Assembly (NCBI GenBank): GCA_017961385.1
Contig: JAGCXJ010000022.1
Span: 1-41,043, forward strand
Source: Lachnospiraceae bacterium
Lineage (GTDB): Bacteria; Bacillota; Clostridia; Lachnospirales; Lachnospiraceae
DNA: 41,043 nt
Reading direction: 5' to 3'
Part shown: in pieces, positions 3,040-35,416 of the stretch
How positions within the stretch are numbered: position 1 is the stretch's first letter
Layout: each line of letters opens with the position of its first letter
Notes under the pieces: model-generated
The model's database searches: none
What the model was told of the DNA's origin: nothing
Seen by the model: the letters and a program-made list of their open reading frames with translations, nothing else
Translations under genes and position numbers: made by a program

Positions 3040-4350
3040 ATGAGTGATGGTTTTGAAGCCGGAAGGCGTATGTACCGGTTTGCTGAGAAGATATTTCCCT
3101 ATACGAGAAGCATAACGGGCGAAGGTGTCAGACAGACATTAAGCGATATAGAAGAGTATATCGCATCATCGGGAACAAAGCTTAAGATTTCTGATATACC
3201 TTATGGAACACTGGTGTTTGACTGGACTGTTCCTAAGGAGTGGAAGATAAGAGAAGCCTATATAGAAGACGAAAACGGTGATCAAATCATAGACATGAAG
3301 GAATCAAATCTTCATGTGCTTGGATATTCTACACCTGTGGATGAATGGGTGGATCTTGATGAATTAAAAAGGCATATATATGTTGAAGAAAACCAGCCCG
3401 ATGTGATACCGTATGTGACCTCGTATTACAAGGAGCGCTTTGGCTTCTGCATGAGCAAGAATAAACTGGATTCCTTAAAAGACGGCAGATATCACATGTA
3501 TATAGACAGTGAGCTGTTTGACGGAGTGCTTAACTATGCTGAGGCGATCATACCCGGTGACAGTGATGAGGAGATCATGTTCTCGACATAGTTTTGTCAT
3601 CCTTCAATGGCGGATAATGAGTGCTCGGGTCCTGCGCTTGCAGCAGAACTCATCAATACGATCGCTTCAATGGATCACAGAAGATATACATACAGATTTG
3701 TATTCGTACCCGAGACAATAGGATCTATAACGTACTTGAGCCAGAATGATCATGTGGCTTATTTGCAGAAGCATTTAAAGGCAGGATTTGTACTGTCGTG
3801 CGTCGGCGATGACAATGACTATTCGATGATACATTCAAGATATGCGGATACTTATGCGGACAGAGTACTTTTAAATGTATTAAGCTACAAGGAAAAGCAT
3901 ACCATTTACGGATTCAACAAGCGCGGTTCGGATGAGAGGCAGTATAATGCGCCCGGAGTTGATCTTCCGGTCGTATGCTTCTGCAGGTCAAAATTCGGTG
4001 AGTTTGCCGAATATCACACATCGGCTGACAACATGGACTTTGTATCTAAAGAAGGCTTTCAGGGCGCATATGATGCGATGATGGAAGCTGTTAACATTCT
4101 TGAAAAGAACGCACGCTACAGGATGAAGGTACTGTGCGAGCCTCAGCTGGGAAAACGAGGTCTGTATTCGGATATCAGCAGAAAGGGTATCTATGATACG
4201 ATACTTGTTCAGCGCGATGTCATATCCTACTGTGACGGAAAAAACGATCTTTTGGATCTGAGTGAACGCATCGGTGTACCTGTAAGCGATATCATAGATA
4301 TAATAGAAAGACTTAAGGAAAACGATCTTTTGGAAGAAACTAAAGAGTGA
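3040..4350 (+). pseudogene. DUF4910/DUF2172 aminopeptidase-like polysaccharide-locus protein with C-terminal winged HTH, interrupted by an in-frame TAG at 3589-3591
   Basis: ORFs 3040-3591 and 3607-4350 share one frame and read RSITGEGVRQTL, VFDWTVPKEW, PYVTSYY, FST*FCHPSMADNECSGP, PETIGSI, GSDERQY, EYHTSAD, CEPQLGKRGLY. The stop sits where the family has Tyr (STYxCHPS). Could be a true lesion or a sequencing error. Confidence 0.8.
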
Positions 4351-10230: not shown

Positions 10231-11394
10231 ATGGTCAGGAGACGATCTCTTAAGGCAGTTGCCGTTCTTTTGACGGTGACCATGTATTTTTCTACACTGC
10301 CTTGCTTTGATTCCTATGCCGAGACCACAAAGGAAAAGCTTGAGAAGGCTCAGCAGCAGCACGAGGAAACAAAGAAAAACCTTAATGAGACAAAAGAGAA
10401 TATTGATGACCTCAACAATGTGAAGCATTCGCTTCAGGGTGAACTGGCGCAGCTTAACGATCAGCTTGAAGAGGTGAGCAACAATCTTGCAGACCTCGAA
10501 GGAAGGATCGAGGACAAGGAAGCAGAGATAACGCAGACACAGTCCGATCTTGAGATCGCCAGACAGCTTGAAGCAGATCAGTATGCGGCAATGAAGAAGC
10601 GCATACAGTTTATGTATGAAAAGCAGGATTTCATGTTTGCCGAGATGATCTTTTCCGCAAAGAACTTTGCCGATCTTCTCAACAAGAATGATTATATCGA
10701 GAGCCTGTCAGCCTACGATAAGAAGATGAAGGACGAGCTCGAGGCTACAAGGATCAGCATTGAGGATACCGAGGCAAGACTAAAGGATGAGAAGGCCGAT
10801 CTTGACAAGCTTCATGAGGATGTTGTTGCGGAGCAGGAAAAGGTCACCGGATATGTCAATGCGACGGCGTCGAGCATAAAGAACTATTCGGGACAGATAA
10901 AGGATGCCGAGGCTGTGGCAGCAGCGTATGAAGCAAAGGCTGCGGAAGAGGAAGCCGACATCGCGGCATTAAAGAAAAAGCTCGAAGAAGAGATCAGGAT
11001 GTCAAAGCTTGCTGCTCAGTCAAAATGGAGGGACATCTCCGAAGTAAGCTTTGAAGAGGGAGACAGATATCTTCTGGCAAATCTGATCTATTGCGAGGCG
11101 GGAAACCAGCCTTATGAAGGACAGGTTGCCGTAGGTGCGGTCGTAATAAACCGCGTTCTTTCATCGGTATATCCCGATACGGTCGTTGGAGTCATATATC
11201 AGAACAAGCAGTTTTCGCCTGTAGGAAGCGGAAGGCTTGCTCTGGCGCTTGCGGAAAACAGGGCAACCGATGCCTGCTACAGTGCTGCCGATGCAGCGAT
11301 GAACGGACAGACAAACGTAGGCACCTGCGTATATTTCAGAACCCCTATCGAGGGTCTCAGCGGCATTCAGATAGGCGGACACATATTCTATTAA
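10231..11394 (+). CDS. Secreted cell-wall hydrolase with PcsB/CwlO-like coiled coil and C-terminal SleB-type (Hydrolase_2) domain
   Basis: Signal peptide (MVRRRSLK plus hydrophobic stretch), long heptad-rich region, then LANLIYCEAGNQPYEGQVAVGAVVINRV, VIYQNKQFSP and IGGHIFY. Confidence 0.88.
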   Translation: MVRRRSLKAVAVLLTVTMYFSTLPCFDSYAETTKEKLEKAQQQHEETKKNLNETKENIDDLNNVKHSLQGELAQLNDQLEEVSNNLADLEGRIEDKEAEITQTQSDLEIARQLEADQYAAMKKRIQFMYEKQDFMFAEMIFSAKNFADLLNKNDYIESLSAYDKKMKDELEATRISIEDTEARLKDEKADLDKLHEDVVAEQEKVTGYVNATASSIKNYSGQIKDAEAVAAAYEAKAAEEEADIAALKKKLEEEIRMSKLAAQSKWRDISEVSFEEGDRYLLANLIYCEAGNQPYEGQVAVGAVVINRVLSSVYPDTVVGVIYQNKQFSPVGSGRLALALAENRATDACYSAADAAMNGQTNVGTCVYFRTPIEGLSGIQIGGHIFY

Positions 11395-11419
11395 AAAATA
11401 AAGGGGATAAAATAAAAGG

Positions 11420-11531
11420 GAAAAGGTCGCTCATTGCTGAACGACCTATAAAGGGGGAGTATATTTTCTTGTTACGTCACTTCGACGTTCACAATTCGGA
11501 AATAAAAGATGTATTTCTTTAATCACCTTGC
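11420..11531 (-). ncRNA. Candidate small regulatory RNA (~110 nt)
   Basis: Minus-strand extended -10 (TGATAATAT) with an upstream direct repeat, an internal hairpin, a single-stranded ACUCCCCCUU, and a terminator hairpin with GCAA loop and U-run. No ORF is listed here. Ends are approximate. Confidence 0.6.
11421..11447 (-). terminator. Intrinsic terminator of the candidate sRNA
   Basis: Minus strand reads AGGUCGUUCA-GCAA-UGAGCGACCU-UUU. The stem has a U.G wobble and GNRA loop on the minus strand but a C/A mismatch on the plus strand. Confidence 0.7.
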
Positions 11532-11537
11532 AAGTGT

Positions 11538-11571
11538 ATATTATCAGATGATGTGTAACAATTCTGTAACA
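11538..11571 (-). promoter_or_regulatory. Promoter with OmpR/WalR-type direct repeat in place of a -35 element
   Basis: Minus strand reads TGTTAC-AGAAT-TGTTAC (11571-11555), then 11 nt, then TAATAT (11543-11538) preceded by TG. Fits the WalR consensus TGTWAH-N5-TGTWAH on both strands. Confidence 0.6.
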
Positions 11572-11572
11572 G

Positions 11573-11604
11573 AAAAAAAGAAACGGGATCACCGTTTCTT
11601 TTTT
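11573..11604. terminator. Bidirectional intrinsic terminator downstream of the DUF402 gene
   Basis: AAAAAAAGAAACGG-GATCA-CCGTTTCTTTTTT, a perfect inverted repeat with A/T tails. Confidence 0.85.
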
Positions 11605-11615
11605 GCATGTATTAT

Positions 11616-12092
11616 CTAAATATGTTCTTTTAATCTGTCTGTCAGGGTGGAGAAGTTTCCGTCCTGGATGAGCTTTATCAGGGCCCCGAGCTGCTTTACG
11701 GATATGAAGAACTGCTGATCGTTTATCAAAAGCTTCTCCTTTGCTTCACAGAGCTCATCTATGTCTATGACGTTCATCTTGCCGTCAGGCTTTACTATCA
11801 CGTCTGCCAGAAGATCCACAACCGTTAGCGTGTTTTGCGCTCTGTCCCACAGATAGGTAACGATATCGCAGTAGAAGTAGACAAGAGAATCATCCTCGGC
11901 CAGAAACTTGCTCACCTTGTAGCCTTCCTTAAGAAAATAGCACGAGTAGCCGTGGTGAAAATCCTTTCTGGGCTTTAAGGTGTTCCACTTTGTAACGATG
12001 ATCTCATCGTCCATATAAAGGATGATATCATCCTTTAGAGGTATGCATTCCTCCGGTATGAGACGCTTGCGATAAAGTACAGGATAATCCAT
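11616..12092 (-). CDS. DUF402 domain protein
   Basis: 158 aa with RBS GGGGAGGG. YFYCDI, VVDLLADV and VIDIDEL acidic motifs are typical of DUF402. Confidence 0.78.
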   Translation of the reverse strand: MDYPVLYRKRLIPEECIPLKDDIILYMDDEIIVTKWNTLKPRKDFHHGYSCYFLKEGYKVSKFLAEDDSLVYFYCDIVTYLWDRAQNTLTVVDLLADVIVKPDGKMNVIDIDELCEAKEKLLINDQQFFISVKQLGALIKLIQDGNFSTLTDRLKEHI

Positions 12093-19364: not shown

Positions 19365-21890
19365 ATGAAAAGAATCCTTATCAGATGGTTTGTCATCATT
19401 GTGGCCTTCTTTGCATCACTGTTTGCCTTTAACATCCTGATGAACCGCGGAACAACCGATATGACGATAGATATGCCGGAAGCAACACTTCCGGTTATTA
19501 GCGTGCTCTACGGGGACAAGAGCGTCAATACGATGTACGGCTATACAGAACGTATGGATGCAGGAACCATGCGAGACAGCATATCTCCTATCGGCGATGA
19601 GCGCTCGCTCAGCTTTTCCGTCAATGCCTACAATACAGGCATAAGCAAGATAAGCTATGAAGTCAGAAGCTTGGACGGAGGCAGGCTTATCGAAGAGACA
19701 ATGGTCGGAAACTACGAGCATAAGACAGGCAGGATAGTCGGCACGATAAACTTAAAGGATCTGATAGAAAAGGATAAGGAATCCAATCTTGGCTTCGTAT
19801 TAAAGCTCACAGACGGAAGGGATGTATATTACTATACGAGGATCATCTGCAAGGAAGATGTGGCTGTAAACGAAAAGCTTGATTTTATCCACAACTTCAA
19901 TTCCATGACATTTTCACAGACTGACGTAAGGAGCCTGTATTCATATATGGAGCCGAACTCCGAAGGGGACAATTCGTCTTTCGGATATGTAAATATACAC
20001 AGCAATCTGAATCAGCTCGGCTGGGGGAATATGCATCCGAGGATCGAAGGCGATATAAGGACTACCATATGCGACATAGGTTCATCGACCGCATCTGTAA
20101 TGCTCGAATACATGGTGAGTGTCAGAAACGATTCCATCGTGAATTATTACATGATCGAGGAGTTTTACAGGATAAGACAGGGCACTGACAGATTCTATCT
20201 TCTGACATATGACAGGAGCATGAAGGAAATATTTGTGGCTGAAAAGGAATCACTTGTGAACAACAAGATAGTCCTGGGAATACAGAACGGCGATATTCAG
20301 GTCAGGGAAAGCGATGACGGAAACATCATAGTGCTGGAAAACTGTGGAAGACTGTTCAGCTATGATGTATCGGCAAACAAGCTGGCAACGCTTTACGGCT
20401 TCTTTACAGCAGGCGATACGGATTTAAGAGACATACATAACGAATCAAAGATAAAGATCCTTTCTGTTGAGGAAAACGGAAATGTTTCATTTGCCGTATA
20501 CGGGTATATGAACCGAGGGATACATGAGGGTCAGACAGGTGTACTCGTTGAATACTACAACAGTCTTTTGAATACCGTTGAGGAGCAGATGTTTGTTGAA
20601 TATAACAGATCTCCTCAGATTTTGATAGCCGATATAGACAGGCTGTGCTATCTAAACAACAACAAGCAGCTCTATGCGTTCATAGACGGAAACATCATAA
20701 AGGCAGATGCCGATAATCTGAGTGTTTCTGTCATCTCCGACAAGGTCATAGAAAATACGCTTTACGTGTCAAAGAGCGGAAGGAGCGCAATGTGGCAGGA
20801 GAGCGAGGATGTTGCATCACAGCTTAACACCATCGATATGGGCGACGGCTTTATAAGCAGCGTGGAAAAGAGCGACAGTGAATGCCTGCGTCCCATAGGA
20901 TACATGAACGATGATCTGATATACGGCGTCAGCAACAGAAACGATATAATATACAATCCTCTCGGAGATACGACATTTCTGATGGCAAAGATTGTCATAA
21001 GATCGAGATTTGGCGCAATCCTTAAGGAATATGACTTCGAGGACATATTTGTTGTAGAGGGAGAGATAAACGAGAACCAGATAAGCCTAAAGAGAGTTGA
21101 AAGGCATTCTGACGGCTCTTACAGCGAGATCCATGATGACCAGATAACAAACAATGATTCAACGGATACTGGCAAGAACAAGGTCGTATATGCTCTGACG
21201 GATATGTTTGAAAAGGTGGCTCAGATCGAGCTTATGTCAAATATCGATGCAAAGACTTTAAAGTTTCTTACTCCAAAGGAAGTACTCTATGAATCGGGCA
21301 AGAACATAAAGCCTGAGTTTAATGAGGACAAGAAACGTTTCTACATGTATGACAGAGGCAGGATAGGCATGATAAGCGACAGTCCTTTGGATGTCATAAG
21401 TCCCTCTTACGAGAGACGAGCTCTTGTCGTGGACAATCTTGGAAACGAAGTATATAAAAGAGGAGAGACTCATGCAAGAAATCAGATCATGTCAATCAAG
21501 GAAGACAGCATGAGTCAAGACAGGGATTCCATGGCTACGTGTCTTGATATCATCCTAAGGCAGAGAGGGATATCAAGAAATACGGAGGCGATGTTGGCTC
21601 AGGGAAAGACGCCATACGAGATACTCGATGAAAATCTTGATAATGTGCATGTGCTCAACTTAAGCGGATGCATCATGGATACGGCCGTTTACTATCTCAA
21701 TCAGGATATACCGGTGCTTGCAATAGCGGACGACGGAAGGACGATCTTACTTGTGGGATATAACGAGCAGAATGTCGTCTGGTACGATCCTGTGATGGGA
21801 AGCATATACAAAAAGGGAATGAGTGATTCCCGCGAACTGTTTGATGAGAGCGGGAACAGATTTTTAACTTACAGCCTGATGGCCGAATGA
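19365..21890 (+). CDS. Large membrane-anchored hypothetical protein (841 aa)
   Basis: Long ORF with one N-terminal TM anchor and a beta-rich body. The C-terminus resembles a degenerate C39-peptidase-like fold. Confidence 0.8.
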   Translation: MKRILIRWFVIIVAFFASLFAFNILMNRGTTDMTIDMPEATLPVISVLYGDKSVNTMYGYTERMDAGTMRDSISPIGDERSLSFSVNAYNTGISKISYEVRSLDGGRLIEETMVGNYEHKTGRIVGTINLKDLIEKDKESNLGFVLKLTDGRDVYYYTRIICKEDVAVNEKLDFIHNFNSMTFSQTDVRSLYSYMEPNSEGDNSSFGYVNIHSNLNQLGWGNMHPRIEGDIRTTICDIGSSTASVMLEYMVSVRNDSIVNYYMIEEFYRIRQGTDRFYLLTYDRSMKEIFVAEKESLVNNKIVLGIQNGDIQVRESDDGNIIVLENCGRLFSYDVSANKLATLYGFFTAGDTDLRDIHNESKIKILSVEENGNVSFAVYGYMNRGIHEGQTGVLVEYYNSLLNTVEEQMFVEYNRSPQILIADIDRLCYLNNNKQLYAFIDGNIIKADADNLSVSVISDKVIENTLYVSKSGRSAMWQESEDVASQLNTIDMGDGFISSVEKSDSECLRPIGYMNDDLIYGVSNRNDIIYNPLGDTTFLMAKIVIRSRFGAILKEYDFEDIFVVEGEINENQISLKRVERHSDGSYSEIHDDQITNNDSTDTGKNKVVYALTDMFEKVAQIELMSNIDAKTLKFLTPKEVLYESGKNIKPEFNEDKKRFYMYDRGRIGMISDSPLDVISPSYERRALVVDNLGNEVYKRGETHARNQIMSIKEDSMSQDRDSMATCLDIILRQRGISRNTEAMLAQGKTPYEILDENLDNVHVLNLSGCIMDTAVYYLNQDIPVLAIADDGRTILLVGYNEQNVVWYDPVMGSIYKKGMSDSRELFDESGNRFLTYSLMAE

Positions 21891-34753: not shown

Positions 34754-35416
34754 ATGGATATAAAGCAAAAGATCGCACAGTGGATACCGACACATGTTTC
34801 TCCGAAACTTGTGGTGTTTGTATACGGTGTACTTGACAGGCTGATATATATAAAAAAATCTGTAAGGAAAGAAAACAGGCTGGTAAACGATCAGGTGTTA
34901 AACAGCGACAGCTCGCCCTATAAGCAGGGCTATATAGAGAACCAGAGCGAATGGAAGAATGTTAAATTCGGAAGATCGACAATGGCTTTTTCGGGCTGCG
35001 AGATCATGGCTGTCTACAATGTTTTATATGCCCTTGACAGAGGAAAGGGAACGAAGCTTATCGGTGAGCTCATAGAAGAGTTTGAAAAGAGCGGAGCTGC
35101 CTTGAAGGGAATGATCGGCTCATCGCCAAGGTCGATAAGAAGACATCTTTTAAAGCACGGGATAAAGAGCAGCATCGTATGGAAAGAGGAAGATATCGAT
35201 CCTGACTGCACACTTGCTGTCGCGACCGTCTATAATGACAAAAAGACTCTTTATTCACAGATACATACCATTGCATTTACAAAGGACGAGAACGGGTTTA
35301 GAGCTCATAACGCTCGAAGCAGACAGAAGTACTATCCCACATTAAGAGAAGCGATAAACGGTGTGGGCAGCGATCCGAAGATGATATGCGCGATACAGAT
35401 AGATAAAAATTTATAG
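34754..35416 (+). CDS. Hypothetical protein, possible C39-like cysteine peptidase fold
   Basis: 220 aa; ENQ...SGCEIMAVYN, IHTIAF and AHNA fit a papain-like Cys/His/Asn order. Confidence 0.55.
   Translation: MDIKQKIAQWIPTHVSPKLVVFVYGVLDRLIYIKKSVRKENRLVNDQVLNSDSSPYKQGYIENQSEWKNVKFGRSTMAFSGCEIMAVYNVLYALDRGKGTKLIGELIEEFEKSGAALKGMIGSSPRSIRRHLLKHGIKSSIVWKEEDIDPDCTLAVATVYNDKKTLYSQIHTIAFTKDENGFRAHNARSRQKYYPTLREAINGVGSDPKMICAIQIDKNL

What the first reader, a model, noticed from the sequence alone, without database searches (positions are those of the whole stretch)
11420..11604. Unannotated two-component-regulated sRNA candidate with an anti-Shine-Dalgarno motif
Seen on the minus strand, in order: the DUF402 terminator (insulating), direct repeat TGTTAC-N5-TGTTAC, 11 nt, extended -10 TGATAATAT, a hairpin (ACGTC/GACGT, 11474-11488), an unpaired ACUCCCCCUU (11460-11451), and a GNRA-capped terminator that pairs properly only on this strand. 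Known: OmpR/PhoB-family regulators bind 11-bp-period direct repeats about 10 bp upstream of -10, as CiaR does for streptococcal csRNAs. C-rich loops of Gram-positive sRNAs pair with ribosome-binding sites, and the repeat fits the WalR consensus. Inference: a stand-alone ~110-nt trans-acting sRNA in a cell-envelope regulon, lying convergent with a peptidoglycan hydrolase gene.
Basis: partly seen in the sequence, partly recalled or inferred. Interest (0 to 1): 0.75.

Follow-up and report, generated by a model that had tools for sequence, protein, structure and literature searches.

The report
Sibling small RNAs of gut Lachnospiraceae
This is one of three copies in the genome of a conserved, predicted small-RNA gene that belongs to an uncatalogued family spread across about half of the sampled genera of Lachnospiraceae gut bacteria and some of their phages, and it likely silences mRNAs by covering their ribosome-binding sites, probably switched on here by a two-component regulator.

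Summary
Observation confirmed; the finding is larger than stated. The unit (TTACA-N6-TTACA repeat, extended -10, unpaired AUAUACUCCCCCUUU seed, 3' hairpin) is one of three paralogs in this genome and occurs in 24 of 26 genus genomes, 1-6 copies each, beside unrelated genes; the hairpin covaries, the seed is near-invariant, no ORF is conserved. A second-round model uncovered a related, mostly single-copy RNA with an ordinary sigma-A promoter and a near-invariant 26-nt core in 46 of 100 Lachnospiraceae genera sampled, in three other families, in human-gut metagenomes and inside phage late regions; a model built from that form alone ranks the three local paralogs top. No Rfam match; none found in nine literature searches. 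It most likely works like csRNA/LhrC/FsrA (anti-Shine-Dalgarno pairing) but is a member of none. WalR and a cell-envelope regulon are not supported: the best, weakly supported, candidate activator is a SARP-type response regulator, and other box-bearing promoters drive chemoreceptors and secreted proteins. Transcription, targets and regulator remain untested. This scan noted an analogous, different family in Chloroflexota.

The parts
11574..11604 (.). Bidirectional intrinsic terminator: ends DUF402 (minus) and probably the hydrolase operon (plus)
   Evidence: Folds -14.1 / -16.4 kcal/mol with U-runs on both strands; absent in orthologs L004, L005
11554..11571 (-). Direct repeat TGTTACA-N4-TGTTACA (family consensus TTACA-N6-TTACA), predicted activator site
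   Evidence: Coordinates; downstream half-site 10 nt before -10 in 39 of 40 boxed copies, upstream half exact in 31 of 40
11538..11546 (-). Extended -10 element TG-A-TAATAT; no sigma-A -35
   Evidence: PWM consensus TGTTACAGTTCTGTTACA-n7-TGATAATAT
11414..11531 (-). Predicted small RNA, about 115-118 nt (+1 inferred 7 nt after -10)
   Evidence: z = -4.0; model R1 69 bits; transcription not shown (inconclusive)
11498..11527 (-). Weak 5' hairpin, variable among copies
   Evidence: MFE; not conserved in alignment A2
11469..11494 (-). ACGUC/GACGU hairpin, shared only by this copy's and the C91 copy's subtypes
   Evidence: CGUC/GACG invariant in 14 of 14 sequences of A2, so no covariation
11450..11464 (-). 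Single-stranded seed AUAUACUCCCCCUUU (anti-Shine-Dalgarno)
   Evidence: Near-invariant columns in A1; unpaired probability 0.94 here, mean 0.82 over 46 copies
11424..11447 (-). 3' terminator hairpin, covarying; loop carries a second C-run in 28 of 46 genus copies but not here
   Evidence: 8 of 10 pairs with two-sided changes, 97.7% cells paired
11414..11423 (-). U-tract interrupted by a conserved CCC
   Evidence: CCC in the tail of 43 of 46 genus copies, 0 of 51 of the widespread form
10231..11394 (+). Neighbour: cell-wall hydrolase (Hydrolase_2/SleB-like), convergent; its mRNA probably overlaps the sRNA gene antisense
   Evidence: PF07486, TIGR02869 below cut-off; no plus-strand U-tract before 11574
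11616..12092 (-). Neighbour: DUF402 protein, upstream on the same strand
   Evidence: PF04167

Best explanation
The element is one of three sibling copies of a conserved, predicted ~115-nt small RNA that likely represses translation in trans by pairing its exposed CU-rich seed with G-rich ribosome-binding sites, and is likely switched on by a response regulator bound to the TTACA repeat. Shown: sequence, multiple copies in unrelated neighbourhoods, covarying 3' hairpin, invariant exposed seed, fixed repeat-to--10 spacing, no conserved ORF, kinship with a family-wide form that has a plain sigma-A promoter. Inferred: transcription from about 11531; activation by a winged-helix regulator sitting where -35 would be (best candidate, about 0.4: the SARP-type regulator G000:C149:375-1178 with its LytS-type kinase, upstream of rpsO-pnp); base-pairing to several mRNAs, additively by the siblings; possible negative feedback on that regulator's own ribosome-binding site. 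In this genus the ancestral, mostly single-copy constitutive RNA would have been multiplied and put under signal control, in a regulon that also holds chemoreceptor and secreted-protein genes.
For: Three copies in G000, next hit E 0.012; 55 hits of 44 bits or more in 24 of 26 genus genomes, 22 of them training sequences. Hairpin covariation 8/10 pairs; seed invariant while 5' parts diverge. Neighbours and orientation vary; in several copies the downstream gene is convergent, so not a leader. 35 of 50 repeat+-10 hits lie before a copy, control 3. Repeat in 33 of 46 genus promoters vs 2 of 134 promoters of the widespread form, which have TTG(C)WW/-10 in 123 of 134. Model R3, built only from the widespread form, ranks the three G000 copies first (E 7e-6 to 7.5e-5; next 0.016). 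Seed pairs at -13 kcal/mol or better with 5.3% of start regions vs 1.3% of coding and 0.9% of upstream windows (n = 1616). SARP-type regulator orthologs (66-100%) in 20 of 26 genomes, none in G016 (99% complete) and G023 (94%), whose copies lack the box and which have no promoter-pattern hit; its start region pairs best of 13 ortholog families (mean -13.2, n = 20). Same layout as csRNA and LhrC (passages).
Against: No stranded expression data: metatranscriptome contigs are unstranded and some cross the promoter. No target identified; start-region preference (-2.38) was matched by at least 1 of 20 shuffled seeds (mean -1.18, best -2.69). Regulator link rests on one loss in two near-identical, reduced genomes; 4 of the 6 boxless copies lie in genomes that keep the regulator; G008 (80% complete) has boxes but no ortholog found, the G012 ortholog is in two pieces; across the family no association (14/27 vs 26/73, p = 0.17); three core OmpR regulators present in all five genomes listed remain possible. 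Kinship with the widespread form lacks synteny and shared C-rich features can converge. No CAU anti-start codon.
Confidence: 0.65

Rival explanations
1. The RNA is real but works as a protein sponge or protein-guided RNA: repeated CCC motifs in loops and single strands titrate a C-rich-RNA-binding protein (such as KhpA/KhpB), as CsrB/Rsm RNAs do with GGA.
For: Two to five C-runs per RNA in single strands, loops and tail; two-component-driven sibling RNAs are also the Rsm pattern (passage); T. thermophilus KhpB was crystallised with a C-rich 10-mer (passage); no conserved mRNA target emerged.
Against: The invariant stretch (11-15 nt in the genus, 26 nt in the widespread form) is longer than a typical protein site and is the complement of an SD plus spacer; this copy has only one C-run outside the tail; UCCC RNAs of Firmicutes with tested mechanism pair with SD sequences.
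Confidence: 0.15
2. One reading: a WalR-activated sRNA of the cell-envelope regulon, acting on or with the convergent hydrolase.
For: This copy's repeat fits TGTWAH-N5-TGTWAH (consensus) on both strands; 20 of 40 boxes fit antisense; the hydrolase mRNA probably overlaps the sRNA gene.
Against: Sense fit only 9 of 40; YycF-like regulator not found in five box-bearing genomes and present in the two boxless ones; none of the seven G000 OmpR proteins scanned reaches the YycF cut-off; box promoters precede chemoreceptors, not hydrolases; hydrolase start region pairs poorly (-6.5).
Confidence: 0.07
3. A cis-acting leader/attenuator or mere terminator for neighbouring genes; the weak CCC-interrupted U-tract allows read-through.
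For: Many copies are followed by a same-strand gene 13-250 nt away; tail CCC conserved; in L004/L005 the seed pairs with a downstream copy to form the hydrolase terminator.
Against: Downstream genes are unrelated and often convergent, including this copy and nearly all of the widespread form; each copy has its own promoter.
Confidence: 0.08
4. A small peptide gene on the plus strand (SD GGGGGAG, TTG at 11469, 17 codons).
For: Good SD and TTG start in this copy and in its sister subtype.
Against: No start codon in 22 of 46 copies; length changes 17 to 29 codons between 97%-identical orthologs; frameshifts between close orthologs; conserved promoter is on the other strand.
Confidence: 0.03

Closest known systems
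csRNAs (CiaRH-dependent small RNAs) of Streptococcus
   Same: Several copies; direct repeat 10 nt upstream of -10; two stem-loops flanking an unpaired anti-SD region (PMC3091779, PMC4152353 passages).
   Different: Repeat is TTACA-N6-TTACA, not NTTAAG-N5-TTTAAG; no anti-AUG; no Rfam match; relatives with a plain sigma-A promoter exist.
LhrC1-5 of Listeria monocytogenes (LisRK)
   Same: Multicopy, ~110 nt, predicted two-component control, redundant UCCC motifs in single strand and terminator loop (PMC4132741 passages; 28 of 46 genus copies).
   Different: No sequence match in Rfam; this copy has no loop motif; a conserved C-run in the U-tract; copies dispersed; envelope-stress link not supported.
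FsrA of Bacillus subtilis (RF02273)
   Same: 5' hairpin, C-rich single strand, terminator with C-rich loop; best Rfam hit of the widespread form L365, 27.6 bits.
   Different: Far below the 80-bit cut-off; no hit for this copy; no Fur box in 134 + 46 promoters.
RsaE/RoxS, RNAIII (UCCC-motif sRNAs)
   Same: UCCC motif proposed to block SD sequences (passages).
   Different: No Rfam match; different size and layout.

Membership tests
csRNA | CiaR box NTTAAG-N5-TTTAAG | tested here: not met
   Box is TTACA-N6-TTACA (consensus)
csRNA | Direct repeat 10 nt upstream of -10 | tested here: met
   39 of 40 boxed copies
csRNA | Unpaired anti-SD between two stem-loops | tested here: met
csRNA | Anti-AUG in the unpaired region | tested here: not met
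   No CAU in the conserved seed
csRNA | Rfam csRNA model match | tested here: not met
csRNA | Translational repression of target mRNAs | not testable with these tools
   Only predicted pairing
LhrC | Multiple copies per genome | tested here: met
   1-6 copies in 24 of 26 genomes
LhrC | Three UCCC motifs (loop A, single strand, terminator loop) | tested here: inconclusive
   This copy: single strand and tail only; loop C-run in 28 of 46 copies
LhrC | Rfam match / LisRK control | tested here: not met
   No Rfam match; LisR dependence itself not testable
FsrA | Rfam RF02273 gathering score 80 | tested here: not met
   27.6 bits for L365; none for the window or L112
FsrA | Fur box in promoter | tested here: not met
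   Best matches no better than shuffles (Fur consensus recalled)
WalR regulon | TGTWAH-N5-TGTWAH box | tested here: inconclusive
   Fits this copy; 9/40 sense, 20/40 antisense across copies
WalR regulon | WalR/YycF encoded in box-bearing genomes | tested here: not met
   YycF-like protein (below cut-off) not found in G041, G017, G009, G019, G000; found in G016, G023, G012, G007, G021
WalR regulon | Co-regulated cell-wall hydrolases | tested here: not met
   Of 15 non-sRNA box hits: 3 MCPs, 1 Fe-S sensor, 4 probable secreted proteins, none a Pfam hydrolase among the 9 scanned

The most novel reading that the evidence does not exclude
An uncatalogued core riboregulator of gut Lachnospiraceae, with a 26-nt centre almost unchanged across dozens of genera, was multiplied and rewired in one genus from a constitutive promoter to a SARP-type two-component switch (with feedback on that regulator's own translation), and has been captured by phages into their late tRNA/packaging region to act on host translation.
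Probability: 0.3. Interest if true: 0.85.

Novelty: new variant of a known kind. Interest (0 to 1): 0.66.

Why it matters
Lachnospiraceae are dominant gut commensals with almost no characterised small RNAs. A ~95-120-nt RNA with a near-invariant core in about half of the sampled genera, abundant in human-gut metagenomes and carried by phages, is a ready target for deletion and target capture in cultured members. The genus studied here offers a natural case of how a single constitutive sRNA may become a signal-controlled sibling set like csRNA or LhrC, and the repeat gives a candidate binding site for an uncharacterised SARP-type response regulator class.

Tried and rejected
Rfam: no gathering hit in the window or 20 loci apart from tRNAs; E-value searches gave only terminator-like or chance hits. 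Exact-pattern scan of genome contigs: 35 loci, the non-Lachnospiraceae ones lack the hairpin. Class-wide search with R3: 11 of 149 other genomes hit at 26-30 bits, all generic terminators or partial. Hits of 31-34 bits in genera g33, g49, g47 share the layout but kinship is unproven. Small ORF on either strand rejected. WalR, C69-type (no ortholog in 5 of 5 box genomes) and C3-type (2 of 5) regulators disfavoured. Family-wide box-regulator association not found. Target prediction: ranked list is dominated by G-rich SDs; FliS (C269) has the best extended match but was not tested in relatives; 8 of 17 ATG-type sites for the widespread form were read and belong to unrelated genes or no gene. Metatranscriptomes: 8 runs laid, all contigs, unstranded; four stop at 11508-11549 coming from the hydrolase side, two cross the promoter, so expression and strand are undecided. 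Plasmids: no match. INPHARED phages: no full match. Genus-type pattern in viral contigs: 15 hits, none with the hairpin. Synteny with the widespread locus not kept in G000. Fremin and Bhatt 2021 alignment files could not be read, so overlap with their candidates is open.

Full report
Observation. Every element is present at the stated place on the minus strand. The unit lies between a convergent cell-wall hydrolase (10231-11394, PF07486) and an upstream DUF402 gene (11616-12092). With +1 placed 7 nt after the -10 hexamer (inferred) the RNA runs about 11531-11414 and folds with z = -4.0, leaving AUAUACUCCCCCUUU unpaired. Rfam has no match.

Sibling copies. BLAST and motif scans found two more copies in the same 66%-complete genome (C91:4790-4850, C31:6628-6694). 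A covariance model of seed plus 3' hairpin (R1, 22 sequences) finds exactly these three (65-76 bits) and 55 hits of 44 bits or more in 24 of 26 genus genomes, 1-6 per genome; the two without are 60% and 77% complete, and 22 hits were training sequences. Named records carrying the RNA are titled Lachnospiraceae MAGs, many from rumen. The 3' hairpin covaries (8 of 10 pairs changed on both sides, 0 of 500 shuffles reach the score, slid controls far lower), the seed is near-invariant and the 5' parts differ in length and sequence. Mean unpaired probability of the seed is 0.82 over 46 copies, lowest 0.43. Neighbours vary in identity and orientation; a copy behind a folD-like gene (name recalled from its sequence) is the commonest. 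No ORF is conserved on the opposite strand.

Promoter. 40 of 46 copies have TTACR followed by a -10 hexamer, at 10 nt in 39; the upstream half-site is exact in 31. Of those 15, nine downstream proteins were scanned: three are chemoreceptors, one an Fe-S/hydrogenase-like sensor, one cytidylate-kinase-like, four have no Pfam family and look secreted; one further hit precedes a pilin-like start (recalled motif) and three have no ORF behind them. This is not a cell-wall regulon.

Regulator. The WalR consensus (PMC9210968 passages) fits this copy but only 9 of 40 boxes on the sense strand and 20 of 40 antisense. The most YycF-like regulator in the genus scores below the NCBIfam cut-off, was not found in G041, G017, G009, G019 or G000, all with boxes, and is present in boxless G016 and G023. 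A receiver plus winged-helix protein (G000:C149:375-1178; weak Trans_reg_C; nearest atlas cluster AfsR/SARP-type at 0.91), beside a LytS-type kinase and upstream of rpsO-pnp, has orthologs in 20 of 26 genomes and no match in G016 and G023. Against it: one loss event, four boxless copies in genomes that keep it, no ortholog found in G008, a split gene in G012, no association across 100 family genomes (p = 0.17), and three core OmpR regulators cannot be excluded. I put it at about 0.4. Its start region pairs with the seed best of 13 ortholog families (mean -13.2 kcal/mol; background -8.7, sd 3.3), a hint of feedback on a small null.

A family-wide relative. Model R2 (57 sequences) hit 39 of 149 other family genomes once each. 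28 of the 29 loci read share one RNA or a close variant: sigma-A promoter, variable 5' hairpin, ACCCCUUAUUAAUUAUUUAUACUCCCCU, covarying terminator with a CUCCCC loop; L393 is a tRNA terminator. An exact 13-mer occurs in 50 of 100 family genomes (one per genus); 22 coincide with R2 hits and 24 of 32 further loci read are full units, 8 chance, giving 46 of 100. In the order, an exact 16-mer occurs in 38 of 251 genomes (f1 13/33, f28 22/27 with up to three copies, f7 2/2, f4 1/1; control 2); nothing convincing outside the order. 123 of 134 promoters of this form have a -35/-10 pair and 2 have the repeat, against 33 of 46 in the genus. Model R3, built only from this form but aligned with R2, ranks the three G000 copies first genome-wide. 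Synteny is not kept, so common descent is likely (shared UAUACUCCCC, stem base, loop) but not proven. Seven viral contigs hold the core; L630 lies between a phage regulator/tRNA-Thr and the terminase genes, L626 just before a portal gene, L629 and L631 in regions like L630's, while L628 is the host locus at a prophage edge and L625, L627 look like boundaries.

Mechanism. The layout is that of csRNAs (PMC3091779, PMC4152353 passages), LhrC (PMC4132741 passages) and FsrA (27.6 bits for L365), all UCCC RNAs reported or proposed to block SD sequences. The seed prefers start regions over coding windows, but 1 of 20 shuffles did as well, and no conserved target emerged. A protein-sponge role remains the main rival (passage on KhpB and C-rich RNA). 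The hydrolase operon has no plus-strand U-tract before 11574, so its mRNA probably overlaps this copy antisense; contigs from RNA runs neither prove nor refute this.

Novelty. Not in Rfam 15. Nine full-text searches (listings only, except the papers named) showed no description of this RNA; the library lacks most subscription papers. For PMC8040213 I saw the supplement list and searched the tables, but the alignments were unreadable, so it may be among those unnamed candidates; for PMC5171806 I saw passages only. Earlier scan notes hold no look-alike sequence and one analogous Chloroflexota family. Verdict: a real, previously uncatalogued sRNA family of a known mechanistic kind, with a genus-specific multicopy, activator-controlled variant; interest 0.66.

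Noticed in passing
L625-L631 (viral contigs; same as L527, L532, L535, L536, L542, L544, L552): Phages carry the core of the widespread RNA: behind a tRNA upstream of terminase (L630, L629), before a portal gene (L626); two others look like prophage boundaries, so the gene may also be an integration site.
   Followed up: partly
L365-L392, upstream on the opposite strand: The widespread RNA is often divergent from a 70-95-codon Asn/Ser-rich low-complexity ORF and an rRNA methyltransferase-like gene (name recalled), and convergent with a small membrane-protein gene.
   Followed up: no
L122/L124 (g33), L123/L125/L127 (g49), L126 (g47), L562, L581, L375: Other genera and families have distinct units of the same layout (C-rich single strand, terminator with C-rich loop); kinship unproven.
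   Followed up: partly
L004, L005 hydrolase 3' UTR: A downstream complement of the seed makes a long plus-strand hairpin (-31 and -39 kcal/mol), so the hydrolase terminator has co-opted the sRNA seed where the DUF402 terminator is missing.
   Followed up: partly
G000:C229:5382, C2:5593, C338:3632, C354:1304: Variant repeats (TGTGACA or degenerate) with extended -10 in front of protein genes; the C229 site lies right behind a paralogous SARP-type regulator.
   Followed up: no
G041, G017, G009, G019, G000: The most YycF-like response regulator of the genus was not found in these genomes (four are 95-96% complete), although WalRK is described as general in Firmicutes.
   Followed up: partly
L289, L297, L309, L311, L315, L316 and others: A recurring TTACAAATTTGTTACA-like motif in other Lachnospiraceae genera, without an RNA or ORF behind it on that strand; may be a site for another regulator on the opposite strand.
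   Followed up: no
window 3040-4350: A DUF2172/DUF4910 protein is split into two ORFs (3040-3591, 3607-4350).
   Followed up: no
window 19365-21890 and 34754-35416: 841-aa and 220-aa ORFs with no Pfam family at 1e-5; the first follows the ATP synthase operon.
   Followed up: no
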